Sequence record: PZ452595.1
Length of the DNA stretch: 64,000 bases
Strand: one strand, 5' to 3'
Source of the DNA: a phage
Numbering within the stretch: position 1 is the first letter of the stretch; each line of letters begins with the position of its first letter. Positions 33-16,707 of the stretch are shown piece by piece. Position numbers and translations under genes: made by a program. Under the pieces are notes generated by a model. It was not told the origin of the DNA. It did no database searches and saw nothing but the letters and a program-made list of their open reading frames with translations.

Positions 33-2012
33 ATGACTTTATTATCTCCGGGCATTGAGCTCAAAGAAACTACGGTTCAAAGCACCGTGGTTAATAACTC
101 TACTGGTACAGCAGCTTTGGCCGGTAAATTCCAGTGGGGTCCTGCTTTTCAGATTAAACAGGTTACAAATGAAGTAGATTTAGTTAATACTTTTGGTCAA
201 CCAACCGCTGAAACTGCTGACTATTTTATGTCTGCGATGAATTTCTTGCAGTACGGAAATGACTTACGAGTAGTTCGTGCTGTTGATAGAGATACCGCTA
301 AAAACTCATCACCAATTGCTGGTAATATTGAATACACAATTTCTACCCCAGGTAGTAACTATGCGGTTGGAGATAAAATCACGGTCAAATATGTTTCAGA
401 TGATATTGAAACTGAAGGTAAAATTACTGAAGTAGACGCAGATGGAAAAATTAAGAAAATTAATATTCCTACTGCAAAAATTATCGCTAAAGCTAAAGAA
501 GTCGGTGAATATCCAGAATTAGGTTCTAACTGGACTGCGGAAATTTCTTCGTCTTCCTCTGGTTTAGCTGCAGTAATAACTCTTGGAAAAATTATTACTG
601 ATTCTGGTATTTTATTAGCTGAAATTGAAAATGCTGAAGCTGCTATGACAGCGGTTGACTTTCAAGCAAATCTCGAAAAATACGGAATTCCAGGAGTAGT
701 AGCTCTTTATCCAGGCGAATTAGGCGATAAAATTGAAATTGAAATCGTATCTAAAGCTGACTATGCAAAAGGAGCTTCTGCATTACTCCCAATTTATCCG
801 GGCGGTGGTACTCGCGCATCTACTGCTAAAGCAGTGTTTGGATATGGACCACAAACTGATTCGCAGTACGCTATTATAGTTCGTCGTAATGATGCTATTG
901 TTCAAAGCGTTGTTCTTTCGACTAAGCGTGGTGAAAAAGATATTTACGATAGTAACATCTATATCGATGACTTTTTCGCAAAAGGCGGCTCAGAATATAT
1001 TTTTGCAACTGCACAAAACTGGCCAGAAGGCTTCTCTGGAATTTTAACTCTGTCTGGTGGATTATCATCAAATGCTGAAGTAACAGCAGGAGATTTGATG
1101 GAAGCTTGGGACTTCTTTGCTGACCGTGAATCTGTTGACGTTCAACTGTTTATTGCGGGTTCTTGTGCCGGTGAATCTTTAGAAACAGCATCTACTGTCC
1201 AAAAACACGTCGTTTCAATTGGGGATGCTCGCCAAGATTGCTTAGTATTGTGCTCACCGCCGCGTGAAACTGTAGTTGGAATTCCTGTAACTCGTGCTGT
1301 TGATAACTTAGTCAATTGGAGAACTGCAGCAGGTTCATACACTGATAATAACTTTAATATCAGTTCAACCTATGCAGCAATTGATGGTAACTATAAGTAT
1401 CAGTATGACAAATATAATGATGTGAATCGTTGGGTTCCATTAGCAGCTGATATTGCTGGTTTATGCGCAAGAACTGATAACGTATCTCAGACTTGGATGT
1501 CTCCAGCTGGTTATAATCGTGGTCAGATTCTTAACGTTATTAAACTGGCTATTGAAACTCGCCAGGCTCAGCGCGACCGTTTATACCAAGAAGCTATCAA
1601 CCCAGTAACTGGTACAGGTGGTGATGGTTACGTATTGTATGGTGATAAAACAGCTACTTCTGTTCCTTCTCCATTTGATCGTATTAACGTTCGTCGTCTG
1701 TTTAATATGTTGAAAACTAATATCGGACGTAGTTCAAAATATCGTTTGTTCGAATTAAACAACGCGTTTACTCGTTCATCATTCCGCACAGAAACTGCCC
1801 AGTACTTGCAGGGAATTAAAGCTCTCGGTGGAATTTATGAATATCGTGTAGTTTGCGATACAACAAATAATACTCCGTCAGTAATTGATAGAAATGAGTT
1901 TGTTGCAACATTCTACATCCAACCGGCTAGAAGCATTAACTACATTACCTTAAACTTCGTAGCAACTGCTACTGGTGCAGATTTCGATGAGTTAACTGGT
2001 CTTGCAGGTTAA
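33..2012 (+). CDS. 18: Tail sheath protein gp18
   Basis: 659 aa ORF, same length as T4 gp18; N-terminus and position upstream of gene 19 match. Confidence 0.95.
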   Translation: MTLLSPGIELKETTVQSTVVNNSTGTAALAGKFQWGPAFQIKQVTNEVDLVNTFGQPTAETADYFMSAMNFLQYGNDLRVVRAVDRDTAKNSSPIAGNIEYTISTPGSNYAVGDKITVKYVSDDIETEGKITEVDADGKIKKINIPTAKIIAKAKEVGEYPELGSNWTAEISSSSSGLAAVITLGKIITDSGILLAEIENAEAAMTAVDFQANLEKYGIPGVVALYPGELGDKIEIEIVSKADYAKGASALLPIYPGGGTRASTAKAVFGYGPQTDSQYAIIVRRNDAIVQSVVLSTKRGEKDIYDSNIYIDDFFAKGGSEYIFATAQNWPEGFSGILTLSGGLSSNAEVTAGDLMEAWDFFADRESVDVQLFIAGSCAGESLETASTVQKHVVSIGDARQDCLVLCSPPRETVVGIPVTRAVDNLVNWRTAAGSYTDNNFNISSTYAAIDGNYKYQYDKYNDVNRWVPLAADIAGLCARTDNVSQTWMSPAGYNRGQILNVIKLAIETRQAQRDRLYQEAINPVTGTGGDGYVLYGDKTATSVPSPFDRINVRRLFNMLKTNIGRSSKYRLFELNNAFTRSSFRTETAQYLQGIKALGGIYEYRVVCDTTNNTPSVIDRNEFVATFYIQPARSINYITLNFVATATGADFDELTGLAG

Positions 2013-12130: not shown

Positions 12131-12811
12131 TTATTTTAATGTTACGAAAGAAGAATTGCGTGTTTCACGAATTAAAACTGATCCGTCGCGATTAATGTAA
12201 TAAATTAAGCTAAACAAAGTTTGGTGTGCTGACGCGTGTTCAAAACTAGTTGGATGAGATTTCCAATCAGGAGTTTCAGCGATCCATTGATAAATCCACC
12301 AAGGAACCGTACAGAATCCTGGATTTTTCCCCAATAATTGAAGATTCGGGCTAAAGTTTTCCGGAAGAGTAAATACAGACGGCTTTTCAGATTCAATAAT
12401 CTTATCTACAGCTTGTTCAAACTTTTCTTCAACAAAAGGAGTGTCTTCAATCAAAACATCAGTATTTTCAGGAATTTTATCCGTTTCTACCACTTCAATT
12501 TTAATATCAGATTTAACTGGAGAATCAATCAGAAGTGCTGCTTCTGGATTAACTTCTTCATCGTCATATTTTAATCCCTCTGCAGCATCAGCAGCATCAA
12601 TTAAGTCTTTAATAGATAACCCATCAGTCTCTGGCATAGGTTCACTAGCGAGCTTCTGGAGGGCTTCTTCAATATCAACAACGATATTATCAAAAGATTT
12701 ATTCTTTTTGACCTTTATACCAAATTGCTCAGCATATTCAGCTAATTTAGCTTTAGCTTCTTTATTATCATCAAGAGCCTTTAACTCTGCAATATAATCT
12801 TTATCTATCAT
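12131..12811 (-). CDS. inh: Inh, inhibitor of prohead protease
   Basis: 226 aa in the T4 inh position between hoc and uvsW. Confidence 0.65.
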   Translation of the reverse strand: MIDKDYIAELKALDDNKEAKAKLAEYAEQFGIKVKKNKSFDNIVVDIEEALQKLASEPMPETDGLSIKDLIDAADAAEGLKYDDEEVNPEAALLIDSPVKSDIKIEVVETDKIPENTDVLIEDTPFVEEKFEQAVDKIIESEKPSVFTLPENFSPNLQLLGKNPGFCTVPWWIYQWIAETPDWKSHPTSFEHASAHQTLFSLIYYINRDGSVLIRETRNSSFVTLK

Positions 12812-12824
12812 AATATTTCCTCAG

Positions 12825-12832
12825 TATAAATA
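12825..12832 (+). promoter_or_regulatory. T4 late promoter motif TATAAATA (PuvsW)
   Basis: Exact TATAAATA 30 nt upstream of the uvsW ATG. Confidence 0.55.
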
Positions 12833-12861
12833 TAGATATATTTATTACATGGTATTTAGAC

Positions 12862-14373
12862 ATGACTGACATTAAAGTACATTTTTATGATTTTAGTCAC
12901 GTGAGAATTGATTGTGAAGAAAGTACATTTCATGAACTCCGTGATTTCTTTAGCTTCGAAGCTGATGGGTATCGTTTTAATCCGAAATACAAATATGGCC
13001 ACTGGGATGGACGAATCCGTCTTTTAGATTATAATCGTCTTCTTCCATTCGGCTTAGTCGGGCAAATTAAAAAGTTCTGTGATAACTTTGGCTATAAAGC
13101 CTGGATTGACCCACAAATTAACGAAAAAGAAGAATTATCAAGAAAAGATTTTGATGAATGGCTTTCTAAATTAGAAATCTATTCAGGAAATAAAAGAATT
13201 GAACCACATTGGTATCAAAAAGATGCAGTGTTCGAAGGATTAGTTAATCGTCGTAGAATTCTTAATCTTCCAACATCCGCCGGTAAATCTTTAATTCAAG
13301 CTTTGCTTGCGCGATATTATTTGGAAAATTATGAAGGTAAAATTCTTATCATTGTTCCAACAACTGCTTTGACAACTCAGATGGCTGATGACTTTGTTGA
13401 CTATCGTTTATTCAGTCATGCAATGATAAAGAAAATTGGTGGCGGAGCATCAAAAGATGATAAATATAAAAATGATGCACCAGTCGTTGTTGGTACATGG
13501 CAAACTGTAGTTAAACAACCAAAAGAATGGTTCTCACAGTTTGGAATGATGATGAATGATGAATGTCATCTTGCTACAGGAAAAAGTATTTCATCTATCA
13601 TATCAGGTTTAAATAACTGCATGTTCAAATTTGGTTTATCTGGTTCATTACGTGATGGCAAAGCCAATATCATGCAGTATGTTGGAATGTTTGGTGAAAT
13701 ATTTAAGCCAGTAACGACTTCTAAATTAATGGAAGATGGACAAGTAACTGAGCTAAAAATTAATAGTATTTTTCTTCGCTATCCAGATGAGTTCACTACT
13801 AAATTAAAGGGAAAAACTTACCAAGAAGAAATAAAAATTATTACTGGGCTCAGTAAAAGAAATAAATGGATCGCTAAATTAGCTATTAAGCTTGCGCAAA
13901 AAGATGAAAACGCTTTTGTCATGTTTAAACATGTATCGCACGGTAAAGCTATTTTCGATTTAATTAAAAATGAATACGATAAAGTTTATTACGTATCAGG
14001 GGAAGTTGATACTGAAACCCGCAATATAATGAAAACCTTAGCTGAAAATGGTAAAGGAATAATTATAGTAGCTAGTTATGGTGTATTTTCTACTGGTATT
14101 TCAGTTAAAAATCTGCACCACGTTGTTTTAGCACACGGTGTTAAATCAAAAATCATTGTATTACAAACAATCGGTCGTGTATTACGTAAGCATGGTTCTA
14201 AGACAATAGCAACAGTCTGGGACCTCATAGATGATTGTGGTGTTAAGCCAAAATCTGCTAATACGAAAAAGAAATATGTTCATTTGAACTATCTTTTAAA
14301 ACACGGCATTGATCGTATTCAGCGCTACGCAGATGAAAAATTTAATTACGTAATGAAAACAGTTAATTTATAA
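12862..14373 (+). CDS. uvsW: UvsW recombination/repair helicase
   Basis: 503 aa with SF2 helicase motifs (Walker A PTSAGKS, DECH box); N-terminus matches T4 UvsW as recalled. Confidence 0.93.
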   Translation: MTDIKVHFYDFSHVRIDCEESTFHELRDFFSFEADGYRFNPKYKYGHWDGRIRLLDYNRLLPFGLVGQIKKFCDNFGYKAWIDPQINEKEELSRKDFDEWLSKLEIYSGNKRIEPHWYQKDAVFEGLVNRRRILNLPTSAGKSLIQALLARYYLENYEGKILIIVPTTALTTQMADDFVDYRLFSHAMIKKIGGGASKDDKYKNDAPVVVGTWQTVVKQPKEWFSQFGMMMNDECHLATGKSISSIISGLNNCMFKFGLSGSLRDGKANIMQYVGMFGEIFKPVTTSKLMEDGQVTELKINSIFLRYPDEFTTKLKGKTYQEEIKIITGLSKRNKWIAKLAIKLAQKDENAFVMFKHVSHGKAIFDLIKNEYDKVYYVSGEVDTETRNIMKTLAENGKGIIIVASYGVFSTGISVKNLHHVVLAHGVKSKIIVLQTIGRVLRKHGSKTIATVWDLIDDCGVKPKSANTKKKYVHLNYLLKHGIDRIQRYADEKFNYVMKTVNL

Positions 14374-14386
14374 GGGCTTCGGCCCT
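14373..14386 (+). other. Short hairpin (GGGC-UUCG-GCCC) overlapping the uvsW stop
   Basis: Short stem with UUCG tetraloop between uvsW and uvsW.1; possible attenuator. Confidence 0.35.
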
Positions 14387-14398
14387 TTGGAGAAAAAG

Positions 14399-14629
14399 AT
14401 GTTACTAGAATTTAAACAATTTCTTTATGAAGCTTCTATTGATGAATTTATGGGTAAAATTGCCTCTTGCCAAACGATAGAAGGTTTAGAAGAACTTGAA
14501 GCTTATTATAAGAAAAGAGTTAAAGAAACTGAATTAAAAGATACTGATGACATCTCAGTCAGAGATGCTTTGGCAGGAAAAAGAGCTGAATTAGAAGATT
14601 CAGACGATGAAGTAGAAGAAAGCTTTTAA
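14399..14629 (+). CDS. uvsW.1: UvsW.1 small acidic protein
   Basis: Track ORF starts at TTG 14387; ATG at 14399 with SD GGAG gives 76 aa. Confidence 0.75.
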   Translation: MLLEFKQFLYEASIDEFMGKIASCQTIEGLEELEAYYKKRVKETELKDTDDISVRDALAGKRAELEDSDDEVEESF

Positions 14630-14684
14630 ATTAAAAAAGGCCCAACCAAAAAGGAAGGGCCAAAACTATAGACTAAAGGTCACA

Positions 14685-14852
14685 CTATAGCAAAAGTTGT
14701 GTTTCATTTAATTGTTCTTCCGAACTTTCTGAAACTGGTAGTTCTTTAATGTAATTATAGCAAGGCCCAGGATGTACAGGACCTTTGTCTGTTTCAACAA
14801 CCAATGCAGAATCGATTGGAGTTTTACAGACAACACAAATCTTATCTGACAT
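14685..14852 (-). CDS. Small CxxC-containing protein (position of T4 uvsY.-2)
   Basis: Hand-translated 55 aa ORF MSDKICVVCKTPIDSALVVETDKGPVHPGPCYNY..., below the track length cut-off. Confidence 0.45.
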   Translation of the reverse strand: MSDKICVVCKTPIDSALVVETDKGPVHPGPCYNYIKELPVSESSEEQLNETQLLL

Positions 14853-14880
14853 GATTGTCTCCTCTGAATTATATATCTAT

Positions 14881-14973
14881 TTATAACCCCATCTTAAAGC
14901 GCATTTCTTGTACACGCTTTAAACATGCTTCCATTTCTGCTAAAAGTCTAAATACTTCTTTATAATTTGTCAT
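14881..14973 (-). CDS. Possible 30 aa micro-ORF
   Basis: Hand-translated MTNYKEVFRLLAEMEACLKRVQEMRFKMGL, packed between neighbouring ORFs; weak support. Confidence 0.25.
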   Translation of the reverse strand: MTNYKEVFRLLAEMEACLKRVQEMRFKMGL

Positions 14974-14975
14974 AT

Positions 14976-15203
14976 TTACCCCATATCTCTCATATGCATA
15001 TCAATGCCCATATCTTTAGAATAAAAATATTCATCAAGATATCCGGCAAATTTTCCTTTAATATAAAGGACATCTTCACCACACGGGTGGTCGGCCAGGA
15101 TACGAATATCCTGACGCTTAAGATTATGCTTTTTCATTAAGAATTGAATCTCAGTTTCAAATTCTTCTTCATAATTAAAAGCATCATCAATGTTATATCT
15201 CAT
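14976..15203 (-). CDS. Hypothetical protein (position of T4 uvsY.-1)
   Basis: 75 aa ORF immediately downstream of uvsY on the - strand. Confidence 0.6.
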   Translation of the reverse strand: MRYNIDDAFNYEEEFETEIQFLMKKHNLKRQDIRILADHPCGEDVLYIKGKFAGYLDEYFYSKDMGIDMHMRDMG

Positions 15204-15616
15204 TATTTTCCAGCCTCAAATGCCCGCATGTCTTGAATATGCTTAATAGCAAATCCTCGTGATTTGATAGCATCAAGAGCTCCGCTACAGAAATCTAATA
15301 AAATTCCCCAATATTGTAATGAAGTATCAACCTTTAAAACATCCTTATCAGCTGATAGAACTGTTTTCATTTCTGATTTCTCGTAACGATCCATACTAAA
15401 TTCATCACCATCTCCTCGTCCCGAGTAGTAGTCTAATTTAGCTTTAAGAGCAACTTTTTTCTGTGCATCAATTCTAAGCATTTCCTTTTTAATACTTGAA
15501 TGCTTATTAAGCCATTTACTATATAACATCACATTATTAGCTGCTTCATACTGTAATTTAGTCGAATCTATAAACACATCTTTCTTCAATTCTTCTTGAA
15601 GATCTTCTAATCTCAT
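15203..15616 (-). CDS. uvsY: UvsY recombination mediator protein
   Basis: 137 aa, same length as T4 UvsY; preceded by a MotA-type promoter. Confidence 0.9.
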   Translation of the reverse strand: MRLEDLQEELKKDVFIDSTKLQYEAANNVMLYSKWLNKHSSIKKEMLRIDAQKKVALKAKLDYYSGRGDGDEFSMDRYEKSEMKTVLSADKDVLKVDTSLQYWGILLDFCSGALDAIKSRGFAIKHIQDMRAFEAGK

Positions 15617-15656
15617 ATTGTTCTCTATTCAATTGTTATTGGATGGACTTAGATTC

Positions 15657-15682
15657 ATTATACCACGTTTTAACGTGAAGCA
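15657..15682 (-). promoter_or_regulatory. MotA-dependent middle promoter PuvsY
   Basis: On the - strand: MotA box TGCTTCA (plus 15676..15682), 13-bp spacer, -10 TATAAT (plus 15657..15662), about 40 nt upstream of the uvsY ATG. Confidence 0.65.
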
Positions 15683-16081
15683 TTATACTCTATTACTAGA
15701 AGCCAGTTGCAGTTTTATCTGCTCAATATCATCAGGGTTATCGATGACCGAAAAGCGTATTTCTACTATCAGAGTATAATCATCATAAACGGGTATTACA
15801 TTAACTGCTAATTTATCAATACGTGGATCATAGTTTCTTACTGCGCTTTCGATGTTACGCTCAACCGTATCAGCAGTAAGAGGAGTCATATTTTCAAAAA
15901 GCTGATCTGATAAATCACATCCAAATTCAGGGTCAAACGGTCTTGAACCTTTTCTTGTTGTAATAATTCCCAAAAGACTGTTTTTAATTGACCTTAATCC
16001 AAGTGATCTGGAAACGTCTTTGTTCCAATCCATTTTCATTTCCGGGTCAATGTCAGAATAAAGCTTATTAATATTTGACAT
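15683..16081 (-). CDS. 25: Baseplate wedge subunit gp25
   Basis: 132 aa, same length as T4 gp25. Confidence 0.9.
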   Translation of the reverse strand: MSNINKLYSDIDPEMKMDWNKDVSRSLGLRSIKNSLLGIITTRKGSRPFDPEFGCDLSDQLFENMTPLTADTVERNIESAVRNYDPRIDKLAVNVIPVYDDYTLIVEIRFSVIDNPDDIEQIKLQLASSNRV

Positions 16082-16707
16082 TATAGTAACTCAAAGAACT
16101 CTTTGAGGCCTCTTATTACGTGAGCATGGGTTTTTCCACACTCTGGACACTTAATTGGAACAGCCAAATAAACAGTAGGCTTTAAAAGCATATCTTTTAT
16201 AGCTACAATATCTGACTCTGTGATGATAGAATATAAATCTTCCAGTTCTTTTTCATTTAAGTCTTCAACTGGAATACTTTCACCGTTAGCATGAATCGTT
16301 TCTATGCATGATACTATCATGTGGGCTATATTTTTATCATCAAAAATTTTAGGGTATCGGAATTTAATTTTAATGTCACCCAGTGTATACCAGAGGTCTT
16401 CTGGTGCATCTATTTGTGTATGTAATAGATTTATATGGGTTGGTATTTCAGTTCCACAGGTGCACTTCCAGGAGTTTTCGTGATTAACTTCTCCAAGAGA
16501 ATGTGCCCATAAATGAATCAACAATAGTTCTGATTCTTGGCGGTTTAAATCTTTTGCATTTGTGCAGTCTTTGATTAGCTTTTTAACAATTACTTCTACG
16601 GAACCATTATTTTTGGCAGTAATAAGTTCTAGATATTCTTTAAGCGTGAATGCGCGACAATTGATTATTTTAGAACCAACTCTCACATCAAAATTGTATT
16701 CATACAT
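16081..16707 (-). CDS. 26: Baseplate hub subunit gp26
   Basis: 208 aa in the T4 gene 26 position. Confidence 0.85.

What the first reader, a model, noticed from the sequence alone, without database searches (positions are those of the whole stretch)
14685..14973. Micro-ORFs in the uvsW.1 to uvsY spacer, one with a CxxC motif
Two ORFs below the track's 60 aa cut-off are tightly packed on the - strand: a 55 aa ORF with CVVC plus a downstream Cys (possible zinc ribbon), and a 30 aa ORF. They are easy to miss in automated annotation.
Basis: seen in the sequence. Interest (0 to 1): 0.3.

Follow-up and report, generated by a model that had tools for sequence, protein, structure and literature searches.

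The report
Two real micro-genes beside uvsY
Both tiny reading frames are genuine phage genes: the 55-residue one is the already named T4 gene uvsY.-2, a small zinc-finger protein, and the 30-residue one is a single-helix accessory protein that most genome annotations miss, so the finding is correct but largely ordinary.

Summary
The window is a T4-type phage, 99.6% identical to RB51/RB68.

**The 55-aa ORF (14685..14852, minus strand)**
- It is T4 gene uvsY.-2, identical in amino acids to T4's and a member of Pfam DUF2685 (119 bits).
- It is annotated in T4 and in most relatives.
- Cys6, Cys9 and Cys31 are invariant. His27 is replaced by Cys in the most divergent homologues.
- The structure model looks like a treble-clef zinc finger rather than a zinc ribbon, followed by an acidic tail with a conserved C-terminal motif.
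- It has its own late-promoter octamer, a strong ribosome-binding site and a terminator.
- A published CRISPRi-ART screen scored it "Semi-Fit" in T4.

**The 30-aa ORF (14881..14973, minus strand)**
- It is absent from T4 and present in 75 phage records. Only 14 of the 59 annotated records I listed mark it.
- It is coding. Between its two alleles dN/dS is 0.08, and 8 of 12 changes fall at third codon positions.
- It belongs to a family of 41 clusters of 29-66 aa proteins. The model is a single helix (pLDDT 96).
- It sits in a variable slot and is exchanged by recombination: it is 100% identical to RB69 inside flanks that are about 89% identical.

The function of both genes is unknown, and the mechanisms proposed here are inferences. 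Interest is low to moderate.

The parts
14685..14852 (-). uvsY.-2 coding sequence (55 aa): DUF2685 small zinc-finger protein with an acidic C-terminal tail
   Evidence: ORF listed. Pfam PF10886 match, 119 bits against a cut-off of 25. Amino-acid sequence identical to T4 uvsY.-2. Annotated in RB51, RB18, e11/2 and T4. Ligands Cys6, Cys9, His27 (or Cys) and Cys31 conserved in 31 unique homologues. AlphaFold2 model with core pLDDT 77-85.
14881..14973 (-). orf30 coding sequence (30 aa): single-helix accessory microprotein, member of PHROG 12503
   Evidence: ORF listed. PHROG 12503 match, E = 7.8e-9. Annotated as a hypothetical protein in RB18, e11/2 and ESH35. dN/dS of 0.08 between alleles. 8 of 12 substitutions at codon position 3, and the other two frames contain stop codons. 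Family of 41 clusters, all 29-66 aa. Modelled as a helix over residues 4-27, pLDDT 95.7.
14878..14885 (-). T4 late-promoter octamer TATAAATA, overlapping the orf30 stop codon, 25 nt upstream of the uvsY.-2 ATG
   Evidence: Exact pattern match. The same octamer is annotated as a promoter in phage Lutter. An nnTAAATA octamer lies 15-33 nt upstream of the DUF2685 start in 38 of 44 related loci. Promoter activity is inferred, not shown.
14859..14864 (-). Shine-Dalgarno sequence GAGGAG for uvsY.-2, 6 nt before the ATG
   Evidence: Read directly from the sequence. A ribosome-binding site is annotated here in T4 record M77695. An SD core is present in 43 of 44 related loci.
14978..14982 (-). SD-like GGGGT for orf30, lying in the last codons and stop codon of uvsY.-1. 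The orf30 ATG follows 2 nt after that stop codon, an arrangement typical of translational coupling
   Evidence: Read directly from the sequence. Identical in KIT03, ESH35 and RB69. Coupling is inferred.
14633..14661 (-). Intrinsic terminator after uvsY.-2: stem GGCCC...GGGCC at 14639..14661, then a run of six U at 14633..14638
   Evidence: RNA fold of -19 kcal/mol, z-score -3.8, with 0 of 200 shuffles folding as well. Annotated as a terminator in e11/2 and in T4 record M77695. The simple terminator scan missed it because its loop is too long for that scan.
14976..15203 (-). uvsY.-1 coding sequence (75 aa): the upstream neighbour in the same transcription unit, listed here for context
   Evidence: ORF listed. 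PHROG 1541 match, E = 4e-46. Annotated in RB51.
14779..15094 (-). Recombination tract 100% identical to Mosigvirus RB69. It covers the 3' half of uvsY.-1, orf30, the late promoter and the 5' part of uvsY.-2
   Evidence: Pairwise alignment of the window against RB69. The tract is identical apart from a 2-nt AT-repeat length difference just downstream of the promoter octamer, while the flanking sequence is about 80-89% identical.

Best explanation
These are two separate, genuine protein-coding genes at the 3' end of the uvsY transcription unit of an RB51-like T4-type phage.

**1. The 55-aa ORF is uvsY.-2.**
- *Shown:* It is a core gene of T4-like phages. It always lies after uvsY and converges on uvsW.1/uvsW.
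- *Shown:* It has a conserved four-ligand metal site (Cys6, Cys9, His27 or Cys, Cys31).
- *Shown:* It is net acidic, with 9 Asp/Glu against 4 Lys/Arg, and its extreme C-terminus is conserved (L-x-E-T/V-Q/E-L/M-L/I-x).
- *Inferred:* It folds as a treble-clef zinc finger followed by a disordered acidic tail.
- *Inferred:* It is transcribed from its own late promoter as well as by read-through from uvsY.
- *Inferred:* It acts through protein-protein contacts rather than by binding nucleic acid. The C-terminal motif would serve as a docking peptide on a phage or host partner during late infection.

**2. The 30-aa ORF (orf30) is an accessory microprotein.**
- *Shown:* It is under purifying selection.
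- *Shown:* It belongs to a family of 29-66 aa proteins found mostly in phages of enterobacteria.
- *Shown:* It occupies a variable slot between uvsY and the uvsY.-2 promoter, and it is exchanged between phages by recombination.
- *Inferred:* It is one amphipathic helix. It is translated by coupling to uvsY.-1. It works by packing against another helix, either as a homo-oligomer or on a target protein, as a dispensable modulator that matters only on some hosts.
For: **Identity of the window and of uvsY.-2**
- The window is 99.6% identical to RB51 and RB68.
- uvsY.-2 is annotated in RB51, RB18, e11/2 and T4.
- Its protein is identical to T4's. It matches Pfam DUF2685 at 119 bits.

**Metal site and fold of uvsY.-2**
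- The ligand pattern is conserved, with a His-to-Cys swap in the most divergent homologues.
- The model shows a knuckle, a hairpin at residues 19-26 and a helix at 30-35, with core pLDDT 77-85.
- The top PDB fold neighbours are all zinc modules (LIM, RING, PHD), though none is significant.

**Genomic setting and expression signals of uvsY.-2**
- Gene order around DUF2685: UvsY lies upstream in 46 of 49 loci, nearly always with UvsW.1 and UvsW convergent downstream.
- The late-promoter octamer is present here and is annotated as a promoter in phage Lutter.
- A similar octamer occurs in 38 of 44 related loci, and an SD core in 43 of 44.
- A terminator follows the gene.

**Published phenotype of uvsY.-2**
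- CRISPRi-ART scored T4 uvsY.-2 'Semi-Fit'. Knock-down gave smaller plaques, and the paper states that complementation recovered plating efficiency and plaque size for the complemented genes, uvsY.-2 among them (PMC11879866).

**orf30 is coding**
- Window against KIT03: 8 synonymous and 4 non-synonymous changes, dN/dS 0.08. The flanking genes are 98-100% identical.
- 8 of 12 changes fall at codon position 3 (p = 0.019), and the other two frames contain stop codons.
- Relatives have 40-55% amino-acid identity and the motif EVFRLLxEMExCxxRVxxLR. They occur in Jedunavirus, T5-like, jumbo and Pseudotevenvirus phages.
- A library-wide search found 41 clusters, all of small proteins.
- The model is a single helix with pLDDT 95.7.

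**orf30 is accessory and mobile**
- It is absent from T4.
- It is present in 75 phage records and in 1 of 44 IMG/VR DUF2685 loci.
- It is 100% identical to RB69 inside flanks of about 89% identity.
Against: - There is no expression or protein evidence for orf30 in any phage. I found no ribosome-profiling or proteomic data.
- Zinc binding by uvsY.-2 is untested. The fold model is only moderately confident (mean pLDDT 72), and no structural match is significant (best PDB E-value 0.44).
- In the same CRISPRi-ART screen uvsY, uvsW and uvsY.-1 scored 'Not Fit' while uvsY.-2 scored 'Semi-Fit'. This argues against uvsY.-2 simply working inside the UvsY/UvsW recombination pathway that its synteny suggests.
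- Most related loci carry AATAAATA rather than the canonical TATAAATA, so late-promoter strength is uncertain.
- The helical hydrophobic moment of orf30 is not significantly above shuffled sequence (0.40 against 0.23 +/- 0.12; 9.8% of shuffles reach it).
- The evidence for purifying selection rests on essentially two alleles.
Confidence: 0.75

Rival explanations
1. orf30 is not a gene. It is a chance ORF in a non-coding insert whose conserved role is regulatory DNA or RNA, for example carrying the late promoter or a leader for uvsY.-2.
For: - The 3' end of orf30 overlaps the TATAAATA octamer.
- T4 does well without the segment.
- 30-aa ORFs are common in this AT-rich genome.
- Most annotators did not call it.
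Against: - The substitution pattern is that of a coding sequence: dN/dS 0.08, with 8 of 12 changes at third positions.
- The same peptide motif recurs at 40-55% identity in unrelated phages that have no uvsY.-2 next to it and quite different DNA.
- In Lw1 and in a metagenomic T4-like phage the homologue lies downstream of DUF2685, not upstream, so it cannot be a leader there.
- No Rfam family matches the region.
- T4 keeps the promoter without the ORF.
Confidence: 0.07
2. uvsY.-2 is a nucleic-acid-binding zinc ribbon that works directly in UvsY/UvsW recombination-dependent replication or repair, for example by recognising DNA structures at oriF or at recombination intermediates.
For: - DUF2685 lies between uvsY and uvsW.1/uvsW in nearly all of 49 loci (46 with UvsY directly upstream), across very divergent T4-like phages.
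- It has a late-promoter-like element, which fits the late, recombination-dependent mode of T4 replication (established T4 biology, from my own knowledge).
- Many small CxxC zinc modules bind nucleic acids.
Against: - The protein is net acidic, 9 Asp/Glu against 4 Lys/Arg, with no basic patch. That is unusual for a DNA or RNA binder.
- There is only one CxxC knuckle, and the modelled topology is treble-clef, not ribbon.
- In CRISPRi-ART, knock-down of uvsY, uvsW and uvsY.-1 was 'Not Fit' while uvsY.-2 was 'Semi-Fit', so the phenotypes do not track each other.
Confidence: 0.2
3. orf30 and uvsY.-2 are functional partners, a two-protein module in which the helix binds the zinc finger or its tail.
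For: Genes of the orf30 family lie directly next to DUF2685 in three separate T4-like lineages: upstream in Tequatrovirus and RB69, and immediately downstream in Lw1-like phages and in a metagenomic lineage.
Against: - Only 1 of 44 IMG/VR DUF2685 loci has an orf30-family ORF within 2 kb.
- T4 and about 85% of Tequatroviruses lack it.
- Family members in T5-like, Jedunavirus, jumbo and P2-like contexts have no DUF2685 neighbour.
- The same slot holds other, unrelated micro-ORFs or nothing at all. The adjacency is therefore better explained by a shared insertion hot spot.
Confidence: 0.1

Closest known systems
T4 uvsY.-2 (NP_049797.1; Pfam DUF2685, PF10886; PHROG 1043)
   Same: The 55-aa ORF has an amino-acid sequence identical to the T4 protein. 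It has the same position, promoter octamer, ribosome-binding site and terminator.
   Different: Nothing differs at the protein level. The only difference is the extra orf30 segment upstream, which T4 lacks.
Treble-clef zinc fingers (LIM half-domains, RING and PHD modules)
   Same: The model has a CxxC knuckle, then a beta-hairpin, then a helix whose first turn supplies the last two ligands (His or Cys, three residues, Cys). The top structural neighbours are LIM, RING and PHD modules.
   Different: No structural match is significant (best E-value 0.44). The protein has a single zinc site, is a 55-aa stand-alone protein with an acidic tail, and shows no sequence relation to those families. Metal binding has not been shown.
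PHROG 12503; Lw1 gp221, RB18 ORF185 and e11/2 gene 194 (hypothetical proteins)
   Same: orf30 matches the PHROG profile at E = 7.8e-9. It is 100% identical to the proteins annotated in RB18, e11/2 and PP01. It shares the motif EVFRLLxEMExCxxRVxxLR with Lw1 gp221, which lies in the same uvsY-to-uvsW.1 locus.
   Different: No family member has a known function. The family has no Pfam entry and no solved structure. Lw1-type members are 45 aa long and lie after DUF2685, not before it.
PeSL mobile regulatory cassettes of T4-type phages (Arbiol et al. 2010, PMC2839356)
   Same: In both cases small non-essential genes are inserted, deleted or replaced between conserved regulatory sequences that act as recombination substrates. 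Here the right-hand boundary of the variable slot is the conserved late promoter plus SD block.
   Different: A PeSL is a sigma-70-like early promoter plus a stem-loop terminator. The conserved block here is a late-promoter octamer plus a ribosome-binding site, with no stem-loop. I found no PeSL flanking orf30. Mini-circle formation was not tested.
Very small T4 effector peptides such as Stp (26 aa); comparison from my own knowledge, not tested here
   Same: A stand-alone phage peptide of about 30 residues, dispensable, and variably present among relatives.
   Different: There is no sequence similarity. The target and activity of orf30 are unknown.

Membership tests
DUF2685 / uvsY.-2 (PF10886) | Score against the Pfam model above the gathering cut-off, over the full length | tested here: met
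   119 bits against a cut-off of 25. Residues 3-55 match profile positions 1-55.
DUF2685 / uvsY.-2 (PF10886) | Position downstream of uvsY on the same strand, convergent with uvsW.1/uvsW | tested here: met
   Window layout. UvsY lies upstream of DUF2685 in 46 of 49 related loci, nearly always with UvsW.1/UvsW convergent downstream.
Zinc ribbon | Two zinc knuckles (CxxC ... CxxC), each on a beta-hairpin turn | tested here: not met
   There is only one CxxC (Cys6, Cys9). The second ligand pair is His27-x3-Cys31 (Cys-x3-Cys in Lw1 and L012), placed at the N-terminus of a helix in the model.
Treble-clef zinc finger | Knuckle, then beta-hairpin, then a helix whose N-terminus supplies the last two ligands | tested here: inconclusive
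   The AlphaFold2 model has this topology, with core pLDDT 77-85 and a mean of 72. Foldseek neighbours are LIM, RING and PHD modules, but all have E-values of 0.4 or worse.
Any zinc finger | Stoichiometric binding of a zinc ion | not testable with these tools
   Supported only by ligand conservation and the His-to-Cys swap. It needs metal analysis of purified protein.
PHROG 12503 (orf30 family) | Significant match to the family profile | tested here: met
   E = 7.8e-9, 36 bits, residues 4-26. A profile built from the family finds 41 clusters at E up to 0.001 among 1.84 billion proteins.
Protein-coding gene (orf30) | Purifying selection on the reading frame, and an intact frame in relatives | tested here: met
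   dN/dS 0.08-0.10 between alleles. 8 of 12 changes at codon position 3, with stop codons in the other frames. The frame is intact in all 75 records.
Protein-coding gene (orf30) | Evidence of translation: ribosome footprints or detected peptide | not testable with these tools
   No such data turned up in the literature searches. Only an SD-like GGGGT and a 2-nt gap to the upstream stop codon support it.
PeSL mobile regulatory cassette | Sigma-70-like early promoter plus a stem-loop terminator flanking the variable gene | tested here: not met
   Promoter-like hits in the region are at or below chance, 4 found against 6.4 expected. The conserved flank is a late-promoter octamer plus SD.

The most novel reading that the evidence does not exclude
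The stretch between uvsY and the conserved late promoter of uvsY.-2 is a dedicated exchange slot for micro-genes in T4-like phages. It holds at least three unrelated families of 30-38 aa ORFs, or uvsY.-1, or a Seg-like endonuclease, or nothing. The conserved promoter and ribosome-binding block would serve as the recombination anchor. On this reading the orf30 family, single-helix peptides spread mostly across enterobacterial phages, would be a new class of host-directed or anti-defence microproteins.
Probability: 0.12. Interest if true: 0.5.

Novelty: already known. Interest (0 to 1): 0.22.

Why it matters
- **Annotation.** orf30 should be added to the RB51, RB68, RB69 and about 45 other genome records. 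It is a clean example of a 30-codon gene that gene callers drop.
- **uvsY.-2.** This is one of the few T4 genes of unknown function with a measured fitness effect. The ligand pattern, acidic tail and conserved C-terminal motif described here give concrete mutants to test.
- **orf30 family.** It is a small, well-defined family of single-helix proteins shared by unrelated enterobacterial phages. If it turns out to target a host or defence protein, it would add to the short list of characterised phage microproteins.
- **Overall.** None of this overturns current understanding of T4-type genomes.

Tried and rejected
**Calls that failed on technical grounds**
I repeated it with the 45-aa Lw1 member placed first.
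- The search for related loci with the 47-member family alignment failed for lack of a sufficiently conserved stretch.
- One literature search was rejected because a term was too short.

**Searches that found nothing useful**
- Rfam on 13800..16200: no match at E up to 1.
- Solved structures by sequence: nothing for DUF2685. For the orf30 family the only hit is a de novo designed helical heterodimer (E = 1.6e-4), which reflects generic coiled-coil composition rather than homology.
- Pfam on all 47 members of the orf30 family: only scattered sub-threshold coiled-coil hits.
- Foldseek of the uvsY.-2 model against viral predicted structures: only uncharacterised DUF2685 homologues.
- Literature: no paper mentions DUF2685. 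No T4 ribosome-profiling study of small ORFs was found.

**Ideas considered and dropped**
- An obligate orf30/uvsY.-2 pair was rejected, because only 1 of 44 DUF2685 loci has an orf30-family ORF.
- The simple terminator scan missed the real terminator because of its 13-nt loop.
- One UniRef entry names orf30 'DNA-binding protein'. It is an isolated label with no support, and every other source calls it hypothetical.
- The sliding clamp as the target of the uvsY.-2 tail was considered from memory of the gp43, gp33 and gp55 tails. I did not pursue it, because the tail lacks their aromatic residues and the idea cannot be tested here.

Full report
**What the window is**

The region 14300..15700 is 99.6% identical to Tequatrovirus phages RB51, RB68 and JY01. 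On the minus strand the genes run uvsY (15203..15616), uvsY.-1 (14976..15203), a 30-aa ORF (14881..14973) and a 55-aa ORF (14685..14852). They converge on uvsW.1 and uvsW on the plus strand.

**The 55-aa ORF is uvsY.-2**

- It is annotated as uvsY.-2 in RB51, RB18, e11/2, KIT03, RB69 and T4. It was already 'ORF1', with a ribosome-binding site and a putative terminator, in T4 GenBank record M77695.
- Its protein is identical to T4's. It matches Pfam DUF2685 at 119 bits against a cut-off of 25.
- Across 31 unique homologues, Cys6, Cys9 and Cys31 never change. His27 is replaced by Cys in the two most divergent homologues. That kind of ligand swap is expected at a metal site.
- The AlphaFold2 model has mean pLDDT 72, with 77-85 in the core. 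It shows a CxxC knuckle, a hairpin at residues 19-26 and a helix at 30-35 that starts at the His27/Cys31 pair. Residues 41-55 are disordered. This is treble-clef topology, not a two-knuckle zinc ribbon.
- Foldseek against the PDB gives no significant hit (best E-value 0.44). The top neighbours are LIM, RING and PHD zinc modules.
- Foldseek against viral models returns only uncharacterised DUF2685 proteins from Aeromonas, Morganella and Pseudomonas phages.
- The protein is acidic, with 9 Asp/Glu against 4 Lys/Arg. Its extreme C-terminus (L-N-E-T-Q-L-L-L) is conserved in every homologue. I take this as a protein-docking tail rather than a nucleic-acid-binding surface. This is inference.

**Expression signals of uvsY.-2**

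- The T4 late-promoter octamer TATAAATA lies at 14878..14885, 25 nt before the ATG. Phage Lutter's record annotates the same octamer as a promoter.
- GAGGAG lies 6 nt before the ATG.
- A GGCCC/GGGCC hairpin followed by six U's comes after the stop codon. It folds at -19 kcal/mol with a z-score of -3.8.
- In 44 DUF2685 loci from IMG/VR, an nnTAAATA octamer lies 15-33 nt upstream of the start in 38. Of these, 13 are TATAAATA and 21 are AATAAATA. An SD core is present in 43.
- The order gp25, UvsY, [variable slot], DUF2685, then convergent UvsW.1 and UvsW holds, in whole or in part, in almost all 49 loci examined; UvsY lies directly upstream of DUF2685 in 46.

**Published phenotype of uvsY.-2**

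The CRISPRi-ART study scored T4 uvsY.-2 'Semi-Fit'. Knock-down gave smaller plaques, and the paper states that complementation recovered plating efficiency and plaque size for the complemented genes, uvsY.-2 among them. The authors describe the gene as of unknown function but important for T4 infection. In the same screen uvsY, uvsY.-1 and uvsW were 'Not Fit' (PMC11879866). This weakens the idea, suggested by synteny, that uvsY.-2 merely assists UvsY or UvsW.

**The 30-aa ORF (orf30) is a real gene**

- T4 lacks it. In T4 only 26 nt separate uvsY.-1 from uvsY.-2.
- A translated search finds orf30 at 87-100% amino-acid identity in 75 phage records. Of the 59 annotated records I listed, 14 mark it and 45 do not. 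RB51, RB68 and RB69 are among those that do not.
- There are two alleles, an RB51 type and a KIT03 type. Window against KIT03: orf30 differs at 12 of 93 nt, with 8 synonymous and 4 non-synonymous changes (dS 0.74, dN 0.057, dN/dS 0.08). Over the same comparison uvsY.-1 is 98.2% identical and uvsY.-2 is 100% identical.
- 8 of the 12 changes fall at third codon positions (p = 0.019), and the other two frames contain stop codons.
- The ATG lies 2 nt after the uvsY.-1 stop codon and is preceded by GGGGT. That fits translational coupling.

**The orf30 family**

- orf30 matches PHROG 12503 at E = 7.8e-9.
- Relatives at 40-55% identity carry the core motif EVFRLLxEMExCxxRVxxLR. They occur in:
  - Klebsiella phage SBP (Jedunavirus);
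  - Yersinia jumbo phage fHe-Yen9-02;
  - T5-like Klebsiella phages;
  - Lw1-like Pseudotevenviruses.
- A profile search of 1.84 billion representative proteins finds 41 clusters. Forty are small stand-alone proteins of 29-66 aa. The single exception is a 521-aa protein matched in 8 short stretches, probably a repeat or compositional hit.
- One borderline member lies beside the repressor gene of a P2-like prophage.
- The family has no Pfam entry and no solved structure.
- The AlphaFold2 model is a single helix over residues 4-27, with pLDDT 95.7.

**orf30 is accessory and mobile**

- Only 1 of 44 IMG/VR DUF2685 loci carries a family member within 2 kb.
- Against RB69, the window is 100% identical from 15094 to 14779. 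That stretch covers the 3' half of uvsY.-1, orf30, the promoter and the 5' part of uvsY.-2. The flanks are about 80-89% identical. The pattern against KIT03 is the reverse. The segment therefore has a history different from its flanks, which indicates recombinational exchange.
- In Lw1 and in a metagenomic T4-like lineage, the homologue sits immediately after DUF2685 rather than before it.

**The variable slot between uvsY and DUF2685**

Across the related loci this slot holds one of the following:

- nothing, with a gap of 13-40 nt;
- uvsY.-1 alone;
- uvsY.-1 plus orf30;
- a 32-35 aa ORF with the motif KMKLLQEFINAAL;
- a 36-38 aa ORF, NISKILDEMVISANRITEIV, which resembles orf30 weakly (13 bits);
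- a 222-aa Seg-like ORF.

The closest described mechanism for this kind of shuffling is the PeSL cassette of Arbiol et al. (PMC2839356). The conserved flank here is a late promoter plus ribosome-binding site, not a PeSL.

**Verdict**

uvsY.-2 is a known, named gene. It is most likely a treble-clef zinc finger rather than a zinc ribbon, and its function is still unknown. orf30 is a genuine, commonly unannotated accessory micro-gene of unknown function. The mechanisms I propose are inferences from sequence, model and context, and they remain untested:

- protein docking through the uvsY.-2 tail;
- helix packing by orf30 onto a partner.

Scientific interest is low to moderate. The practical value lies in annotation and in a set of testable mutants.

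Noticed in passing
window 14779..15094: This 316-nt tract is 100% identical to Mosigvirus RB69, apart from a 2-nt AT-repeat length difference, while the flanking sequence is about 80-89% identical. It looks like a recent recombination tract between phage genera.
   Followed up: partly
L025, L027, L029, L032, L033, L037, L038, L042, L044, L047 (about 1856..1972 in each): In other T4-like phages the slot between uvsY and the DUF2685 promoter holds other 29-38 aa ORFs. There are at least two further families (motifs KMKLLQEFINAAL and NISKILDEMVISANRITEIV). Each ends inside the late-promoter-like octamer.
   Followed up: partly
L026 and L031, 1304..1972: A 222-aa ORF occupies the same slot between uvsY and DUF2685. 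By eye it resembles a Seg-type (GIY-YIG) homing endonuclease. This was not checked against any domain library.
   Followed up: no
window 12811..12862: inh and uvsW are separated by only about 50 nt. T4 carries the homing endonuclease gene segE at this position, and this phage lacks it.
   Followed up: no
window 12862..14629; L004 678..2441: Here uvsW (503 aa) and uvsW.1 (76-80 aa, depending on whether the ATG or TTG start is used) are separate ORFs. The T4 RefSeq record annotates a single 587-aa uvsW and carries a note about sequence discrepancies.
   Followed up: no
window 14666..14690: A second hairpin (stems CUAUAG...CUAUAG) overlaps the uvsY.-2 stop codon, just upstream of the terminator hairpin.
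   Followed up: no
L059, 1794..2165: In one divergent locus the stop-to-stop frame containing DUF2685 is about 124 codons long. PHROG 26998 (126 positions) matches uvsY.-2 only over its C-terminal 53 positions. Some phages may therefore encode a longer protein with DUF2685 as its C-terminal domain.
   Followed up: no
proteins P0002, P0014, P0040, P0043, P0049, P0062 and P0058, P0060, P0069-P0073: Subsets of the orf30 family end in recurrent C-terminal tails: ...GYGEG or ...GFGEG in one group, and ...KKAA, ...KQAA or ...PQAA in another. Their meaning is unknown.
   Followed up: no
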